Part shown: piece after piece, positions 18,001 through 30,000 of the stretch | Layout of the letters: the number at the start of each line of letters is the position of its first letter | Numbering within the stretch: the first letter of the stretch is position 1 | Assembly (NCBI GenBank): GCA_965202585.1 | Contig: OZ241828.1 | Location: 15,066,001-15,130,000 of the forward strand | Direction: 5' to 3' | From: Thalia democratica | Lineage: Eukaryota | DNA length: 64,000 bases | Position numbers: made by a program

Positions 18001-21000
18001 AATATACAAAAAATTGTCAAGTTACAGAACTGCTATAGCTGCATGCTTTAAATATTACCATATGTTTCTGGACACAAAGATATTAATGAAAATATATCAT
18101 GGTTATTAAATTTATAATTAAGATTTTAAGTCATAACAAATTGTTTTTTATAAATCCAATAACCAACATGCGTGTGTGACAGGTTTAAATATCATAATTA
18201 GTCTGGAAACGAGAATTTAAAATAAAGAAAACATATCTTAAAAGGCCATGAACGCAAAAGCAATGAAGTAAAAGGACAAATCAAAATTGTTTCACAATTA
18301 AAACACTTATACAACCGAAAATCATAATAAAATACTACTAGAATGTAACAACATCACTCGTAGTCAATAACTATAAGGTACGAAATCGCGCGAAGTGATA
18401 GTTAATACTGTATAAATATTATCATTTCTTGTAAAAACACAAAAAATATTATTACCTGCTACAAGCAACTTCAACCTACTCTAAAACATAAACTGAGATA
18501 ACAAGTAAAATTTATAAATATCAGGAAATAAACATTAAGGCAATTTTTTAAGTACCAAAGTAACTATGAATTTGCGAAATAAAGATGAACACATGCAAAA
18601 CATATTGCAAAAGTTAATTTTAATGGAAACCGCTCAGTTCCAACCCGCATACAATTCCCAACCGATCGAATCCTAGAACCGCTCACCGACCAAGGGTAAC
18701 AGTGATAGTAAAACTTTGAAGACAAACAAAAAATAAATAAAAATAAATAACGAACTAAAATCAAAAACAAAATTGGGTATGAGTTGTGCGGGTGGGAATT
18801 GTTAGTACAAAAATTTTAATATATCAATAAACAACCAGCCTGAAGAGCGGAATTTAGATAGCACTAAAATGCACCAAAAATAACTATTTTCATACTAACA
18901 GCTTACAATACACAATAGAACTAAGCTAACAAGTGAAAGCTAAAATAAGAGGAAATAAATAACAGAGGTTATTTCAGTATCAAAGTACAAACTAGTTTAC
19001 AAAAAAAAAAACATGTAAGCTACAAAATAATGCAAACAGCTTTGCTAAGGTTGTACTTGTTCTACAAAATAAAAAAATATTCTACACATTCTTAATAACT
19101 GTACCAACCTGAACAACAGAATTGAGGTAGCAGGTATTTCCAAGGTTGTAAAGTCCAGTCACGCCAGGCAACTTGTTGAAACAATTCGCATTTCTCTTGC
19201 TTTCAACATTCTTTTTAGTTTTATTGTCGGTCAACTTGCGTTTCATCGTGACTTGGCTCTTTGACGTTGTCACCGTGATCGACTCTTTTCTGTTAAGTTT
19301 AATAAAACTAAATGCATTCAACTTTAAAAAGTCGTGTTTTAATTGTTTTAAATAAAACTTTGAATTAGTAGCTTGCAAGATTTAAAAAGAACGATTATAG
19401 ATAATATGTAAATATAAGTTTACATGAAACACAAGAACTTAATTTATTTTTAGAAAAATATCAATTTAAATCAAATATTTTTTCAACAAAGGTCATTTGT
19501 CTGACCTTAAATAGCAACCGTTATCTTTGCATGGTCAAACAAATAAACTTTTATTGATTTTTATTCACATTTATTTAGTTGAACCCTGTTTTAACACATT
19601 TTAGCTGTTTGAAACAATTGAAGTCGAAAAACCAGTTTGTTATTTTCAATTTATTCCAATAATTGCAAAAATACACATTTAAATAAGTATTTGTTGTAGA
19701 AAATGGAACAAATATTAGAGGCTTCTTATTATAACTGTTATTTTATGTGTAAACGTTTCTTTTTAATAATACAAATATACATTCTACACCAGGGTTTCCA
19801 AAACTCTTTTTTCAAATTGCCCCCTTTGAAGAAATTAAAAAACCTATTGGCCCCTCGAACAAGATTACTCAAAAAACTACATTTAAAACAATTAAGATCT
19901 TTTTTTTTTCTCTTCGTCTGCAACTCAAGAATATTTAGTGTAAGTTTCAAATATACTATAAAAACACCTAAGACCTAAAGGTTAAAAAAATACAACTAAC
20001 TTTACTTCCTTTTTGATCAGCTTTTCACACAGCTTCTGCTTCTTCAACACCGGACTGCTACTGGTTGACAGTCTCTTGCTTCTCCTGATCAGCTCTTTGT
20101 TGTTTGAGGAGTTCTTGGGAGCTTCCTGGGACCTCAGAAGCCTCTGTGTTAAATCTTGGTTCAGTTTTTCCTGATTGAGGGGAACCACCTTTTTGGCGGG
20201 TTCAACGTTTTCAAGTGGGTTCGAGGACTTTCTTTTCAGACCGAGGACCTTAAAAAAAATAAATTTTACTAATAAAGCTTTTTAAAATAAAACTGTTTTC
20301 ACTAGAATATTAAACAAAAAATACAAATTCACTTATAATGAGCAAAACTTGAGACCTTGAGAGATAAAACTGTTTTTGCTAAAACGTTTTCAAGTCATAA
20401 TATTTAGTCAAACTTTGAAATACAATAGCCAGCAAAGAGAACTTAAAAATAAATTTAATGTTTTAGCTGACACTTGTATTATAATCAGCACAAATAAAAC
20501 TATTTAATTAATTGACTTATTATTATTTGTTGTCATAAAAAGTATTATTCGTATAGAATATTAATTATACATTATTATTAATATATTTATTATTATTACA
20601 TATTATAACTTTTCTTTAAAATATTTCTCTTATATTTTTAACTTGAGTCATGCGAGCTTATTTTAAAAAGTCACGTAAGACCTTATTAAAGTACTAAAAA
20701 GAACTAATTTTTTTAGATAAGTAGAAAAGTAATTCCATTAAAATAACTAACAGAGCTTCTGGGCTGCGGGGTCTTGAGAACCACCAACGGGATGTTTTCA
20801 TCGTCCGACTCGTCTGAGCTTGACACCAATTCGTTTTCCTTGGTAGATGCGTCTTTAACAGGACTGATCGGTTCTTGTTTGACCAGGAAAGTTTTGTTTC
20901 CAGTCTTGTCTTTGGTGTTTGAATCGCTCGGTACAACTTTAGTGGGACTTATGGGCTCTTGTTTAACTGTGAAAACTGGTATCTTTTTAGTTGAAGTATT

Positions 21001-27000: not shown

Positions 27001-30000
27001 CTGCCTCGTCCTTGAAACAGACCTGGATCTGGTCTTTTGCAGGCGACTGGATTTCAGGTCTGTTTTGGTCACTAACTTATTAATCAAAGAGCCGCTTCTG
27101 CTGCGAGTAGCGGTTTTAGCACTAGGCCCAGTAGGTTTCGACTCAATTTTTTTCTTGTAGTTTTTACCTGTCTCAAGGCAAATATCCGGCTTTTTCGGGT
27201 CAACTTCCACAGCCTTCTCCGAAGAGCTGTTGGAGTTGGAAGAATTCGATTGTGAGTCGAATTCCGGTAACTGATCAACTCCCAGCCTTTCATCAATTTT
27301 TTCCTTGTTGACCCTGTCAACCTCTTCAGCGTTATTTTTGTTGCCTTCCTCGCAAACGCTCTGCCGCGTTTGGCTCCTCGTCCTCTTCCTTTTCATCCTC
27401 TGCTGTTCCTCCTTCTCCTTTTTTATCTCCAGACTGATCCTCCTTTTGGTGGCCTCCAACTTCTTTATGTAATTCGTCTTTTCGGGACTTTTCGCTTTGA
27501 AGCTCTCAATTTTTTTCTCCAGCTCCTTCTCCATTTCTCGTTTTTTGAGAATTTCCCTCACTCGTTCGGTGTACTTCAAACTTTTGTCTGTTTCAGCTTC
27601 CCCCACCACGACCGAGCCCTTTTCTATCTGGCTTCTCGTCGATCTGGTCCTGGGAGACGTCGGCGCGAAACTTTCTGCGAGCTTCTTCCTACTCTTAGGG
27701 TTGTTTTCTCCCGAGCCGTCGAAAAATTTGACGCTCTTCTTGGGAGAAACACCTTTTTTAGGAGAAAATTCAACCTGATTTTTCTTTCTGGGGCTTTTTC
27801 TTGTAGGATTTTTAGAGCTTGCTTCGGAAGATTTTTCCTGCAACTGATCAATACCCAGCCTTTCGTTTAATTCTTTTTTATTTTTGTTACTTTCTTCGTC
27901 ATCTGTGTTTTGGGCGTCCAGTTCTTTTCTGTTGTAGTGGTAGGTCTTCCAATTTCTGAAGAACTTCCTACATCTAGACATCCTGTTTAAAAATTTTAGT
28001 AATTAGTACATTTTATATTTTCAAAGTTTTACTTAATTGTATAGTTTTAGACCTAAATCTATTTGATAATTAAACGTATATATAAACCATGTTTTTTTTC
28101 AAAGTTTGTTAACTATAACAACAATTAGATTATATAGACAAAATAAACAAATTAATAAACAGCTATATAGCTTATATTTAAAGCTAAGTTGAAATAAACA
28201 AAAAAAATTATAAAACACAAGTAGTTAATATATATTATCAGTTATGAGCTAGGATTAGTATAAAGAGTTTTTTAACAGTTTGCCCATAGCAAAACTAAGT
28301 TTTAATTATTCGTAAGTGTGGAGACCTAAGGAGACTTTTATTAAACAATTTGAGCTAATTTTGAATGAGAAGATATTTAGATATAAATTCAAAATAAAAA
28401 AGTATTTACACAACTTTTACATTTCTTACACTTAGATTTTTTCTTGATTAAGTCAATAATTGTCCAAAAAACTTTAAGTTATGACGTCAGCAAACTGAAA
28501 TGTTTGAAATATAAAATTCGTTTTCAAAGTTTTTTGTTTCAATTAGTTTTACTTAAGGCTTTGTGTTGAACGTTTTTTATTTTTGTGTCTATTTGGAATA
28601 CAGTTTAGCTTTGTGTGTTTTAAGATAGGAAAAATGTCGTTCAGAAGACTCAAAATTAATTCGGAGAATCCAGTTTTGAAGAGTTTGATCAAAACCGAAA
28701 AAGATGAACTGACTTTAATGGCTAGGTTTAAATTTCAAGACAATTTTAAAAACTTTTTATCTTTTTTGCATAAATTAGCATACATTAACATCTTAGTTAA
28801 GCATAATATTTTTTTTAATAGTAAATATTGAATAGTTTGGTTTTGGTACTGGTTTTAATTAAAAAGTTTAAACATAACTGACTCATTTTCAAAAAAAAAG
28901 TTTATTTATTAATTTCGTTTAGCTCTTTTCAGAATAACATTGCTAAAAACTATGAATATTGTAGAGTAATTTTAGTTATATATAATGAATTTGAAAAGTC
29001 TAACAAAAAATAGTTACGTCATAAAGAATAAAAGTCTGTTTAGAAAAAGTTTGAAAAATAGAATAGAGCTATACTGAACTAACTTAAAGTAATTTATAAG
29101 ACAAAATTGCTAAAACAAAAACATTTAAAATAGTATAAATTTTTACCTTAAACTAAATTAAATAAAAAGCACATTAAAAATACGACAATAACAACAACGA
29201 AAAATAATACTACTAAAGACCCTATTTGTAAAGTTTTAAATTGTAAAAATCTCTTTGTTTGCAAATTTTTGGCTCGCGAGATCTAATAAATAGAGATTCT
29301 AGAACTGAAAGATGGTAGGTGTTTCTAGCTCGGGATAGGATTTCGAACCTATTATCCAGGTAGTTCTCGGCACAAACAGGGTTGTTGAGGAGGTGCTGAT
29401 TTTGTCTTATAAATTACTTTAAGTTAGTTCAGTATAGCTCTATTCTATTTTTCAAACTTTTTCTAAACAGACTTTTATTCTTTATGACGTAACTATTTTT
29501 TGTTAGACTTTTCAAATTCATTATATATAACTAAAATTACTCTACAATATTCATAGTTTTTAGCAATGTTATTCTGAAGAGAGCTAAACGAAATTAATAA
29601 ATAAACTTTTTTTTTGAAAATGAGTCAGTTATGTTTAAACTTTTTAAGTAAATATTGCATTATTGCATTGCTTTTTTATTCTGTTTGTCTGATTTAAAGC
29701 TTGAAAATATACTTTGCAGTTTCAGCTCTACGAAAATCAAACCTAAAAATGAGAAAAAGAAAGTCAAGCAACAAGAAAAAGTTTGTTAAGACTTATCTGT
29801 TTTGATCAGTTTACGAGTTAAACTTCAAGTTATTCTAGAAGCCGTATTACCTTCATTATTTTGGTCAATTTCAAATATTCAAGTGACAATACTTGATAAG
29901 TAAAGATTTATTAAAGCTTGTTTATCCAACTGTTTCTAAATTTGTTTATACCAAGGTCATTGTTTTGCTTATTATTACAACTTTTGAAAATTGCTATTAC

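What the first reader, a model, noticed from the sequence alone, without database searches (positions are those of the whole stretch)
20752..27982. USP44/49 homologue with an IDR of about 2,500 aa, mostly in one 7.2-kb exon
Seen: a stop-free 7,231-nt exon lies between the ZnF-UBP and the Cys box, giving a protein of over 3,000 aa. Established: vertebrate USP44/USP49 are about 700 aa with a short linker here and act on ubiquitylated H2B. Inference: this is a lineage-specific scaffold expansion. Exon 5 cannot be skipped in frame (phase 2 in, phase 0 out).
Basis: partly seen in the sequence, partly recalled or inferred. Interest (0 to 1): 0.65.

Follow-up and report, generated by a model that had tools for sequence, protein, structure and literature searches.

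The report
Giant disordered linker in USP44/49-type deubiquitinase
A gene for a USP44/49-type ubiquitin-removing enzyme carries one 7.2-kb exon that puts about 2,400 residues of apparently unstructured, lysine/serine/glutamate-rich protein between its zinc finger and its catalytic domain, roughly 6 to 25 times the spacer length seen in the relatives that could be compared.

Summary
On the minus strand, 27982..20752 is a 7,231-nt stop-free exon. About 165 stops are expected from its own composition (P about 1e-74). It has a canonical AG acceptor and GT donor, phase 2 in and phase 0 out.

It is exon 6 of a 13-exon, phase-consistent model holding 3,004.7 codons in the window. The His-box end of the gene lies beyond the window.

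The gene is a USP44/49 homologue. Both zinc-finger exons match the solved USP49 ZnF-UBP far better than any other chain. The named relatives are USP44 or USP44/49 proteins.

The in-frame join into the big exon is supported by the USP44/49 centrin-binding Trp pair. One Trp sits in e5 and the other in e6, 14 residues apart, as in 5 of 5 homologues. An intron-less relative, P0002, crosses the same junction.

The ZnF-to-Cys-box linker is 2,603 aa, against 106-436 aa in 7 relatives. The exon has no Pfam domain, a disorder-like composition and no confident AlphaFold structure.

Transcripts, protein and function are untested. I rate it a new variant of a known kind, of moderate interest.

The parts
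49139..49285 (-). e1: start codon and 49 basic residues; holds two copies of KKSRKTLPKK
   Evidence: ATG at 49285-49283, donor GTGAGT, phase 0. P0002 residues 3-17 match at 93%.
46486..46536 (-). e2: 17 codons
   Evidence: Acceptor tttttttcacAG, donor GTTAGT, phase 0/0. Weak match to P0002 residues 19-34, E 0.87.
44700..44854 (-). e3: first half of the ZnF-UBP
   Evidence: PDB 9yc2 (USP49 ZnF-UBP) E 5.5e-10. Pfam zf-UBP positions 1-26, 18 bits, below the 22.7 cut-off because the piece is short. Phase 0 in, 2 out.
43157..43328 (-). e4: second half of the ZnF-UBP
   Evidence: Pfam zf-UBP 41.1 bits, E 2.2e-10. PDB 9yc2 E 8.5e-10. 72% identity to P0002. Phase 2 in, 0 out.
41706..41842 (-). e5: start of the linker; ends ..KALWCL plus two bases of a split Arg codon. 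It holds the first Trp of the centrin-binding pair.
   Evidence: Read, donor GTATGT, phase 2 out. Matches P0002 residues 151-174.
20752..27982 (-). e6: the 7,231-nt exon encoding 2,410 residues of disorder-like K/S/E/V/T-rich sequence
27946..27981 (-). First 12 codons of e6 (MSRCRKFFRNWK). They hold the second, anchor Trp of the centrin-binding motif, which is the only Trp in the 2,410 residues.
   Evidence: Published centrin-binding mutants are USP44 W162A (PMC8085418) and USP49 W158A (PMC9879932), passages read.
26878..27105 (-). Arg/Ser-rich stretch, e6 residues about 293-368. It holds 10 of the exon's 18 RS/SR dipeptides.
   Evidence: The total count is not above the shuffles (mean 15.9); only the clustering is notable.
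23278..23565 (-). Tandem array of 21 nt x 13.7 copies, a heptad S-E-K-S-E-V-V repeated 13 times
   Evidence: TRF score 380, 83% matches. 13 motif hits against a shuffle mean of 0.04.
20860..21135 (-). Four repeat units, each with psi-K-x-E-x-x-[ST]-P (VKQEPVTP or VKQEPISP type), the pattern of a phosphorylation-dependent SUMOylation motif
   Evidence: 4 hits at residues 2283, 2310, 2339 and 2367, against a shuffle mean of 0.08 and a maximum of 1. The motif definition is from PMC3816760 (passages).
20776..20823 (-). Acidic Ser/Asp/Glu run followed by IPLVVL, which resembles a SUMO-interaction motif. A second, similar site (acidic run plus PLICL) lies at 21772-21810.
   Evidence: The SIM pattern is recalled, not taken from a call.
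20001..20248 (-). e7: 82 more linker codons
   Evidence: Acceptor attttttttaAG, donor AA|GTTAGT, phase 0 in and 2 out, which fits e8. It is one of only 4 ORFs of 99 aa or more outside e6 in the whole window.
19109..19289 (-). e8: Cys box, with the catalytic Cys at about residue 2767 of the model
   Evidence: Pfam UCH positions 1-18, E 1.1e-4. tblastn to P0018, P0032 and P0026.
11222..11348 (-). e9: USP domain
   Evidence: tblastn to P0018 residues 598-631 is weak, E 0.31. Phases fit.
10183..10298 (-). e10: holds a GLHGG motif
   Evidence: Weak tblastn match, E 5.2. Splice sites and phase 1 in fit e9.
9807..9944 (-). e11: USP domain
   Evidence: tblastn to P0026, E 0.06. The acceptor is poor (atacgaaaaaAG), so this is the least certain border.
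5963..6094 (-). e12: USP domain (QQDAQEF box)
   Evidence: tblastn to P0032, E 5e-7, 67% identity. Pfam UCH positions 85-124.
5435..5613 (-). e13: USP domain (zinc-ribbon CxxC part). It is the last exon found in the window.
   Evidence: tblastn to P0018, E 3e-13, 70% identity. Pfam UCH_1. PDB USP46, USP12 and USP2 at E 2e-4 to 4e-3.

Best explanation
This is a single minus-strand gene for a USP44/49-type deubiquitinase. Its ancestral short linker between the ZnF-UBP and the catalytic domain has grown to 2,603 residues, and 2,410 of them sit in one exon (e6).

Shown here:
- The exon is protein-coding along its whole length.
- It is flanked by canonical splice sites in the phases needed to join e5 and e7.
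- The family's bipartite centrin-binding motif (ALW, 13 residues, then W) is split by the e5/e6 intron and is restored with exact spacing only by that splice.
- The insert has no recognisable domain and looks disordered.

Inferred mechanism:
- The N-terminal module (ZnF-UBP plus centrin-binding motif) anchors the protein on nucleosomes or centrin, as in USP44/49.
- The catalytic domain works at the end of a long flexible tether. My rough polymer estimate is about 40 nm rms, against about 9 nm for a 170-residue linker (own assumption).
- The tether also carries short linear motifs: four SUMOylation-type sites next to a SIM-like site, an Arg/Ser-rich stretch, and several duplicated short motifs. 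These could recruit partners or drive clustering.

The insert grew at least partly by local duplication: a heptad array and four units of about 28 aa. It is a mosaic of segments with exon-like GC3 (0.53-0.60) and segments with intron-like GC3 (0.17-0.20). I read the latter as younger additions.
For: Coding:
- 0 stops where 165 are expected. The shuffle maximum is 227 codons.
- All 47 windows of 100 codons are open, against 3.7-8.6 expected stops each.

Gene model:
- 13 of 13 exons have AG/GT borders, chained phases and 0 in-frame stops, adding up to 3,004.7 codons.
- The e6 donor GTTAGT is also used by e2, e7, e11 and e12.

Junction e5/e6:
- e5 ends ..KALWCL plus AG, and e6 begins G plus MSRCRKFFRNWK. 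The Trp-Trp distance is 14. The distance is also 14 in 5 of 5 homologues that have both Trp residues: P0015, P0022, P0026, P0018 and P0032.
- The second Trp is at residue 162 in P0015 and 158 in P0022, the residue numbers mutated in the published centrin-binding mutants.
- tblastn of P0032 starts its linker alignment exactly at the e6 start (RKTFRNWRNY against RKFFRNWKTY).
- P0002 is colinear with e1-e5 and runs on into e6 across the same junction without intron residues.

Family.

Linker lengths, from Pfam coordinates:
- 106, 106, 107, 132 and 138 aa (Paragonimus x2, P0006, P0027, Lingula).
- 419 and 436 aa (Phallusia, P0018).
- 2,603 aa here.

Disorder:
- Composition K 15.7, S 13.1, E 10.0%; W+F+Y 2.1%. 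Mean hydropathy is 0.384, below the boundary of 0.421. 83 of 95 windows are disorder-like.
- AlphaFold2 single-sequence models of residues 560-1330 and 1331-2410 give mean pLDDT 37.4 and 35.8, with 0 residues at or above 70.
- Pfam gives only a sub-threshold repeat artefact.

Motifs and growth:
- 4 PDSM-pattern sites against 0.08 expected; the heptad 13 times; three motifs each present twice against 0 expected; the tandem array.
- GC3 mosaic.

Function of the family's modules (passages read): USP44 and USP49 are reported histone deubiquitinases, the USP49 ZnF-UBP binds nucleosomes, and a ZnF-UBP can dislodge cleaved ubiquitin from the catalytic domain (PMC13493902).
Against: - No RNA or protein data exist for this locus, so the gene model rests on sequence logic.
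- P0002, the closest relative, is only 255 aa. It changes reading frame inside the e5 equivalent and reads the start of e6 in the +1 frame. If that shift is real, the relative makes a ZnF-only protein.
- An ATG follows the e6 acceptor directly, so an independent start cannot be excluded.
- Three consensus-like donors and two acceptor-like sites lie inside e6.
- No homologue of the insert was found: 1,335-4,251 aa only; no usable hit. Nothing therefore shows that any part of it is conserved.
- Low pLDDT from a single-sequence fold is weak evidence for disorder.
- The total count of plain psi-K-x-E sites (7) and of RS/SR dipeptides (18) is not above the shuffles.
- The His box was not seen, so an intact catalytic domain is not shown.
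- The tether and scaffold function is inference only. Low-complexity growth is common in AT-rich genomes (own knowledge) and could be neutral.
Confidence: 0.6

Rival explanations
1. The insert is real and translated, but functionally neutral. It would be tolerated low-complexity growth of a linker whose only requirement is to connect two domains. The SUMO-like and other motifs would then be by-products of duplication.
For: - No homologue of the insert was found.
- Much of it arose by local duplication.
- Residues 1201-1800 have intron-like GC3 of 0.17-0.20.
- The four PDSM-pattern sites are copies of one unit, so they count as one event.
- Linker length already varies from 106 to 436 aa among relatives.
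Against: - 2,410 codons are kept open in a genome where this composition gives a stop about every 15 codons. Frameshifts and stops are therefore purged, although that is also required simply to keep the downstream catalytic domain in frame.
- The published model in which the ZnF-UBP acts in cis on the catalytic domain (PMC13493902) predicts a cost for a roughly 90-fold drop in effective concentration (rough estimate).
Confidence: 0.3
2. There are two products rather than one. The ZnF-UBP exons would make a short protein of their own. The big exon would start a separate protein at its own ATG (27981-27979), from an internal promoter in the 13.7-kb intron, giving insert plus catalytic domain without the zinc finger.
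For: - An ATG lies immediately after the acceptor.
- The upstream intron is the longest, at 13,723 nt.
- P0002 is a 255-aa ZnF-only record.
Against: - The centrin-binding Trp pair is split between e5 and e6 and is restored with the family spacing of 14 only by the splice.
- P0002 itself runs across the e5/e6 junction into e6. Its shortness comes from a frame change, not from an end of the transcript at e5.
- The acceptor and the phase match e5 exactly.
Confidence: 0.1
3. The main transcript removes part of e6 by internal splicing (an exitron), so the usual protein is much shorter than 3,000 aa.
For: - Three consensus-like donors lie inside e6, at 27076, 26301 and 24635, with two pyrimidine-tract acceptors at 26515 and 24460.
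- There is an intron-like GC3 segment.
Against: - No 100-codon window of e6 has lost its open frame (47 of 47 open), including the AT-rich segment where most stops are expected. Every part must therefore be translated in some product that is under selection.
- The numbers of candidate sites were not compared with chance.
Confidence: 0.15

Closest known systems
Vertebrate USP44 and USP49 (histone H2B deubiquitinases, centrin-binding)
   Same: - An N-terminal ZnF-UBP whose best match is the USP49 structure 9yc2.
- The ALW-13 residues-W centrin-binding motif with the anchor Trp (PMC8085418 and PMC9879932, passages).
- A basic R-R-S-x-R-L element shortly before the Cys box, read by eye and not tested.
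- A USP catalytic domain beginning G-L-x-N-L-G-N-T-C-Y.
   Different: A vertebrate-like representative is 697 aa with its Cys box at residue 261 (P0022). Here the Cys box starts at about residue 2758. The extra roughly 2,400 residues lie between the centrin motif and the R-R-S-x-R-L element.
Ascidian ZF(UBP)-3 (Phallusia mammillata CAB3267566.1, 1,023 aa) and the unnamed P0018 (1,079 aa)
   Same: - The same domain order, with an already enlarged linker of 419 and 436 aa that has no Pfam domain.
- The best matches to the catalytic exons: 70% to P0018 over 40 aa of e13, and 67% to P0032 in e12.
- 8 of 10 identical residues around the anchor Trp (P0032).
   Different: The linker here is six times longer. 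Beyond its first 20 or so residues the alignments are not significant (E 0.007 to 0.4, about 20% identity).
Lingula anatina USP44 (XP_013409004.1, 704 aa) and Paragonimus westermani USP44/49 (KAA3680896.1, 974 aa)
   Same: ZnF-UBP followed by a USP domain. Lingula keeps the Trp pair at a spacing of 14.
   Different: Their linkers are 138 and 106 aa. Paragonimus has a different Trp arrangement.
P0002 (255 aa, handle ERR1712096_420958)
   Same: It is the closest relative found: 72% identity in e4 and 93% in part of e1. It is colinear with e1-e5 and with the first 60 or so codons of e6.
   Different: It changes frame within the e5 equivalent and reads e6 in the +1 frame. The record ends there, so the length of its insert is unknown.

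Membership tests
USP44/USP49 subfamily of ubiquitin-specific proteases | An N-terminal ZnF-UBP closer to USP44/49 than to other ZnF-UBP proteins | tested here: met
   Both halves have the USP49 ZnF-UBP 9yc2 as best PDB hit (E 8.5e-10 and 5.5e-10). The next best is HDAC6 at 1.5e-4 and 0.058, and USP16 scores 0.067. Named hits of the library search are USP44, USP44/49 and ZF(UBP)-3.
USP44/USP49 subfamily of ubiquitin-specific proteases | A centrin-binding motif anchored by an invariant Trp (USP44 W162, USP49 W158) | tested here: met
   The sequence pattern and the spacing of 14 are present across e5/e6. Binding itself was not tested. The published alignment of the USP49 motif is in a supplement that I could not see.
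USP44/USP49 subfamily of ubiquitin-specific proteases | A USP catalytic domain with a Cys box and catalytic Cys | tested here: met
   GLYNLGNTCY in e8, Pfam UCH positions 1-18. e12 and e13 match the USP cores of P0018, P0032 and P0026 and of PDB USPs.
USP44/USP49 subfamily of ubiquitin-specific proteases | The His box and Asp/Asn of the catalytic triad | not testable with these tools
   No match to the C-terminal 245 or so residues of the homologues in window 1-12000. The exons must lie beyond the window's left end.
USP44/USP49 subfamily of ubiquitin-specific proteases | ZnF-UBP and USP domain in one polypeptide | tested here: inconclusive
   The phase chain of 13 exons, the split motif and the colinearity of P0002 through e6 support it. 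There is no transcript evidence for e6-e7-e8.
USP44/USP49 subfamily of ubiquitin-specific proteases | Deubiquitination of H2B-Ub | not testable with these tools
   This needs a biochemical assay. The family activity is taken from PMC13493902 (passages).
Intrinsically disordered region | Low hydropathy with high charge, few aromatic residues, no domain match, no confident fold | tested here: met
   Caveats: the charge-hydropathy rule is crude, the folds used no alignment, and e6 residues 1-559 were not folded.
Phosphorylation-dependent SUMOylation motif (psi-K-x-E-x-x-S/T) | The sequence pattern | tested here: met
   4 sites against 0.08 in shuffles. The definition is from PMC3816760. The four sites are copies of one repeat unit. 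Modification was not tested.

The most novel reading that the evidence does not exclude
The giant linker could be a regulated leash and hub. The ZnF-UBP and centrin motif would fix the protein at a nucleosome or at centrin. The catalytic domain, about 2,600 disordered residues away, would then sweep a radius of tens of nanometres, clearing ubiquitin from many neighbouring nucleosomes. The clustered SUMO-site and SIM-like module and the Arg/Ser-rich stretch would let phosphorylation and SUMOylation switch the linker between an extended and a self-associated (condensate) state. This would also uncouple the cis action of the ZnF-UBP on product release that has been described for short-linker relatives.
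Probability: 0.12. Interest if true: 0.7.

Novelty: new variant of a known kind. Interest (0 to 1): 0.45.

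Why it matters
USP44 and USP49 are studied as compact enzymes of about 700 aa. In them the zinc finger, the centrin-binding motif and the catalytic domain are close together. A recent paper proposes that ZnF-UBP domains act on the catalytic domain of the same molecule (PMC13493902, passages).

This gene keeps all three modules but separates the last one by about 2,600 disordered residues. It is therefore a natural experiment on how much that coupling depends on proximity.

It is also a clean example of a very long single-exon disordered insert kept open in an AT-rich genome, with visible traces of how it grew: tandem duplication and segments with intron-like third positions.

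My three searches on USP44 or USP49 listed no paper describing such a long USP44/49 homologue. I read only the listings for most of those papers.

Tried and rejected
Searches that found nothing:
- The search for homologous proteins with the whole big exon (candidates of 1,335-4,251 aa only), with the ZnF exon (000 aa) and with the e13 ORF (000 aa) all found nothing. This tool needs shared exact 5-residue words, so the results are weak negatives.
- The ESM Atlas search with e6 residues 1-2043 gave no usable hit. A first try was over the size limit.
- Pfam on the big exon gave only a sub-threshold match of the heptad array to an antifreeze beta-roll (18.5 bits against a cut-off of 30). I rejected it as a repeat artefact.
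- PDB search with e12 gave 0 hits. With e13 it gave only generic USP cores, because no USP44/49 catalytic structure is in the PDB copy.

Hits rejected:
- P0036 (3,340 aa) looked like a possible long relative among the library hits, but it has SprB repeats and no USP or ZnF-UBP domain.
- A Rota_NS6 match at 6476-6700 (18 bits against a cut-off of 28.5) was rejected as chance.

Other negatives:
- Self-BLAST of the insert returned no off-diagonal pairs, although TRF and the motif counts show repeats. I did not pursue this.
- A nested or neighbouring gene was looked for. 0 of 43 other ORFs of 60 aa or more have a Pfam family, there are 0 Rfam families and 0 tRNAs.

Not done:
- Genome contigs holds only bacteria and archaea and was not used.

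Full report
**The observation**

The window is very AT-rich, about 21-28% GC outside the feature. It contains no N, and I do not take it for human.

On the minus strand there is a single open frame of 2,429 codons at 20713..28002. It is bounded by an acceptor ...ttaaacAG|G at 27984-27983 and a donor ...TCT|GTTAGT at 20751-20750. It is 7,231 nt long, enters in phase 2 and leaves in phase 0.

Chance does not explain the open frame:
- From the exon's own composition 165 stops would be expected (P about 9e-75).
- The longest open frame in 200 shuffles was 227 codons.
- The other five frames hold 40-331 stops.
- Each of 47 overlapping 100-codon windows expects 3.7-8.6 stops, yet all are open.

Skipping the exon would join e5 (..TTG AG) to e7 (GTC CTC GGT CTG A..). 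That gives a stop after four codons, by my reading.

**The gene around it**

Reading the minus strand with the help of fetched relatives gave 13 exons (tblastn; sequence):

| Exon | Coordinates | Content |
|---|---|---|
| e1 | 49285-49139 | ATG, basic N-terminus |
| e2 | 46536-46486 | 17 codons |
| e3 | 44854-44700 | ZnF-UBP, first half |
| e4 | 43328-43157 | ZnF-UBP, second half |
| e5 | 41842-41706 | start of linker |
| e6 | 27982-20752 | the big exon |
| e7 | 20248-20001 | linker |
| e8 | 19289-19109 | Cys box |
| e9 | 11348-11222 | USP domain |
| e10 | 10298-10183 | USP domain |
| e11 | 9944-9807 | USP domain |
| e12 | 6094-5963 | USP domain |
| e13 | 5613-5435 | USP domain |

All 13 have AG and GT borders, their phases chain, and none has an in-frame stop. 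Together they hold 3,004.7 codons. The e6 donor GTTAGT is also the donor of e2, e7, e11 and e12.

The big exon is therefore the sixth coding exon in my model, not the fifth. The least certain border is the e11 acceptor.

No match to the last 245 or so residues of the relatives (the His-box half) exists in 1-12000. The gene therefore runs off the left end of the window, and 3,004 codons is a minimum.

Each exon was searched on its own. I left out the step of joining the exons into one protein for searching or folding.

**Which family**

The two ZnF-UBP exons each have the solved USP49 ZnF-UBP (9yc2) as best match, at E 8.5e-10 and 5.5e-10. The next chain is HDAC6, at 1.5e-4 and 0.058. Pfam sees zf-UBP in both (41.1 bits, and 18 bits for the shorter piece) and UCH/UCH_1 pieces in e8, e12 and e13.

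A search of 1.84 billion representative proteins with the e4 ORF gave 36 hits at E of 1e-3 or better. Those that carry a name are:
- Lingula anatina USP44;
- Paragonimus westermani USP44/49;
- Phallusia mammillata ZF(UBP)-3.

The PDB copy holds no USP44/49 catalytic domain, so e13 matches only generic USP cores there.

**Is the big exon really part of this protein?**

The strongest argument is a split motif. Published work shows that USP44 and USP49 bind centrin through a motif anchored by one tryptophan. The mutants W162A (USP44) and W158A (USP49) lose binding (PMC8085418 and PMC9879932; I read the passages found).

In the fetched relatives this Trp is the second of a pair, ALW followed 14 residues later by W. 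The second Trp is at residue 162 in P0015 and residue 158 in P0022. The spacing is 14 in 5 of 5 relatives that have both Trp residues. P0039 and P0025 (Paragonimus) have a different arrangement. P0006, P0027 and P0021 show no such pair in the range examined.

In the window, e5 ends ..KALWCL plus two bases of an Arg codon. e6 begins with the third base and then MSRCRKFFRNWK. With exactly this donor and acceptor the two Trp residues are again 14 apart. The e6 Trp is the only Trp in the exon's 2,410 residues. tblastn of the ascidian protein also begins its linker alignment at the first codons of e6, with 8 of 10 identical residues around the Trp.

A second argument is P0002, the closest relative found (72% identity in e4).
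- It is colinear with e1 to e5 and continues into the start of e6 without any intron-derived residues.
- I infer that it derives from an intron-less, probably transcript-derived, contig.
- The same junction is therefore used in a relative.

Downstream, e7 and e8 are linked to e6 only by splice sites and phases. e7 contains an R-R-S-x-R-L element that resembles one standing shortly before the Cys box in several relatives. I saw this by eye and did not test it.

**A result against a simple reading**

P0002 is only 255 aa. From about its residue 180 it follows the +1 frame of e5, crosses the junction in that frame and reads the start of e6 in the +1 frame.

In the window that frame has a TGA just before the e5 donor and a stop 39 codons into e6. 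Whether the relative has a real frameshift, which would give a zinc-finger-only protein, or its contig has an indel error, cannot be told without its DNA.

An ATG also follows the e6 acceptor directly. An additional product starting there cannot be excluded.

**What the insert looks like**

The 2,410 residues are 15.7% K, 13.1% S, 10.0% E, 8.7% V and 8.1% T, with 2.1% aromatic residues. Mean hydropathy (0.384) is below the charge-hydropathy boundary (0.421). 83 of 95 windows of 51 residues are on the disordered side; the 12 exceptions lie mostly between residues 650 and 1300.

AlphaFold2 without an alignment gave mean pLDDT 37.4 for residues 560-1330 and 35.8 for residues 1331-2410. No residue of the 1,851 modelled reached 70, and only a few short helices appeared. 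Such folds are weak evidence, and residues 1-559 were not folded.

Pfam finds no domain and the ESM Atlas gave no usable hit.

The repeats and motifs are:
- a 21-nt tandem array, 13.7 copies, at 23278-23565, giving the heptad S-E-K-S-E-V-V;
- three short motifs present twice each, and SSKD five times;
- at the C-terminal end, four repeat units each with psi-K-x-E-x-x-[ST]-P, against a shuffle mean of 0.08;
- directly after these, an acidic run plus IPLVVL.

The psi-K-x-E-x-x-S/T pattern is that of the phosphorylation-dependent SUMOylation motif (PMC3816760, passages). The reading of the acidic-hydrophobic site as SIM-like is from my own recall.

Plain psi-K-x-E sites (7) and RS/SR dipeptides (18) are not more frequent than in shuffles. 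However, 10 of the 18 dipeptides cluster at residues 293-367.

**How it grew**

Third-position GC is 0.53 in the 12 other exons together. Within e6 it is 0.53 in residues 1-300 and 0.60 in residues 901-1200, but only 0.17-0.20 in residues 1201-1800. That is close to the introns, at 0.19-0.26 GC. The low-GC3 segment includes the tandem array.

I read this as a mosaic of older and younger sequence. This is an inference.

**How unusual it is**

From Pfam coordinates, the distance from the end of zf-UBP to the start of UCH was measured in all 7 proteins that carry both domains, out of 27 scanned:

| Protein | Linker (aa) |
|---|---|
| P0039 and P0025 (Paragonimus) | 106 and 106 |
| P0006 | 107 |
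| P0027 | 132 |
| Lingula USP44 | 138 |
| Phallusia ZF(UBP)-3 | 419 |
| P0018 | 436 |
| This gene | 2,603 |

I scanned 26 of the 36 library hits plus P0039. I left out ten short or vertebrate-like hits. In the model here the zf-UBP match ends at residue 154 and the UCH match starts at residue 2758. 2,410 of the 2,603 linker residues lie in e6.

The library search had no length limit, and its only long hit (P0036, 3,340 aa) is an unrelated bacterial-type repeat protein.

How narrow the expanded lineage is remains open, because the only close relative is truncated.

**Mechanism**

Shown here: a USP44/49-type gene with a translated, disorder-like insert of about 2,400 residues between the centrin-binding motif and the catalytic domain.

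From the literature passages read (PMC13493902):
- USP44 and USP49 are reported histone deubiquitinases;
- the USP49 ZnF-UBP binds nucleosomes;
- in USP16 the ZnF-UBP helps to dislodge cleaved ubiquitin from the catalytic domain.

Inferred: the N-terminal module anchors the protein, and the catalytic domain acts at the end of a flexible tether. A rough scaling estimate of my own gives about 42 nm rms separation for 2,600 residues, against about 9 nm for 170. That corresponds to a roughly 90-fold lower effective concentration of one end at the other. Any cis coupling would therefore be much weakened while the reach is increased. The motif clusters may add regulated partner binding.

The main rival is that the insert is neutral low-complexity growth. 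I give the gene structure about 0.85 confidence and the tether-and-hub function about 0.35.

**Surroundings**

No other gene was recognised:
- 0 of 43 further ORFs of 60 aa or more have a Pfam family;
- no Rfam family;
- no tRNA.

**What stayed unchecked**

- There were no RNA or protein data.
- Eukaryotic genome collections were not on hand.
- Supplements were closed, and the USP49 paper's alignment of its centrin-binding motif is in one.
- The three literature searches on USP44 or USP49 listed no paper on a giant USP44/49 homologue. That is a statement about listings only.

**Verdict**

It is a new variant of a known kind, of moderate interest.

Noticed in passing
window 43458-43505 (minus), in intron 3: A decayed partial copy of the 5' end of ZnF exon e4 (reads RQIENHALDHYTHSGN), preceded by tacAG and ending in an in-frame TAA. 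It is either a remnant of an exon duplication or a possible poison exon.
   Followed up: partly
P0002 against window 41745-41759 and 27792-27983: The closest relative's record changes reading frame inside the e5 equivalent and reads the start of the big exon in the +1 frame, ending at 255 aa. It is not known whether this is a real frameshift or a contig error.
   Followed up: partly
window 20752-27981 (e6): A third-position GC mosaic: 0.53-0.60 in residues 1-300 and 901-1200, but 0.17-0.20 in residues 1201-1800, which is close to intron composition.
   Followed up: partly
window 28854-29107 and 29399-29652 (intron 5): An inverted repeat with 254-nt arms, 99% complementary and 291 nt apart, about 870 nt upstream of the e6 acceptor. 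It looks like a foldback or MITE-type element.
   Followed up: no
window 41458-41548 / 41603-41693 and 36048-36475 (intron 5): A direct repeat of 91 nt (92% identity) lies just downstream of the e5 donor. A tandem pair with a period of about 229 nt lies further in.
   Followed up: no
window 49154-49270 (e1): The N-terminal exon holds two copies of KKSRKTLPKK. P0002 appears to have one.
   Followed up: no
window 24133-24222 (e6 residues 1254-1283): This is the most order-like island of the insert (GPLCRMAEEMTK.. with Phe, Tyr and Ile). AlphaFold models a short helix here, with block-mean pLDDT just above 50 (51-53). It is a candidate binding motif.
   Followed up: partly
window 1-5434: No exon for the His-box half of the USP domain was found, so the gene is cut by the window's left end.
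   Followed up: yes
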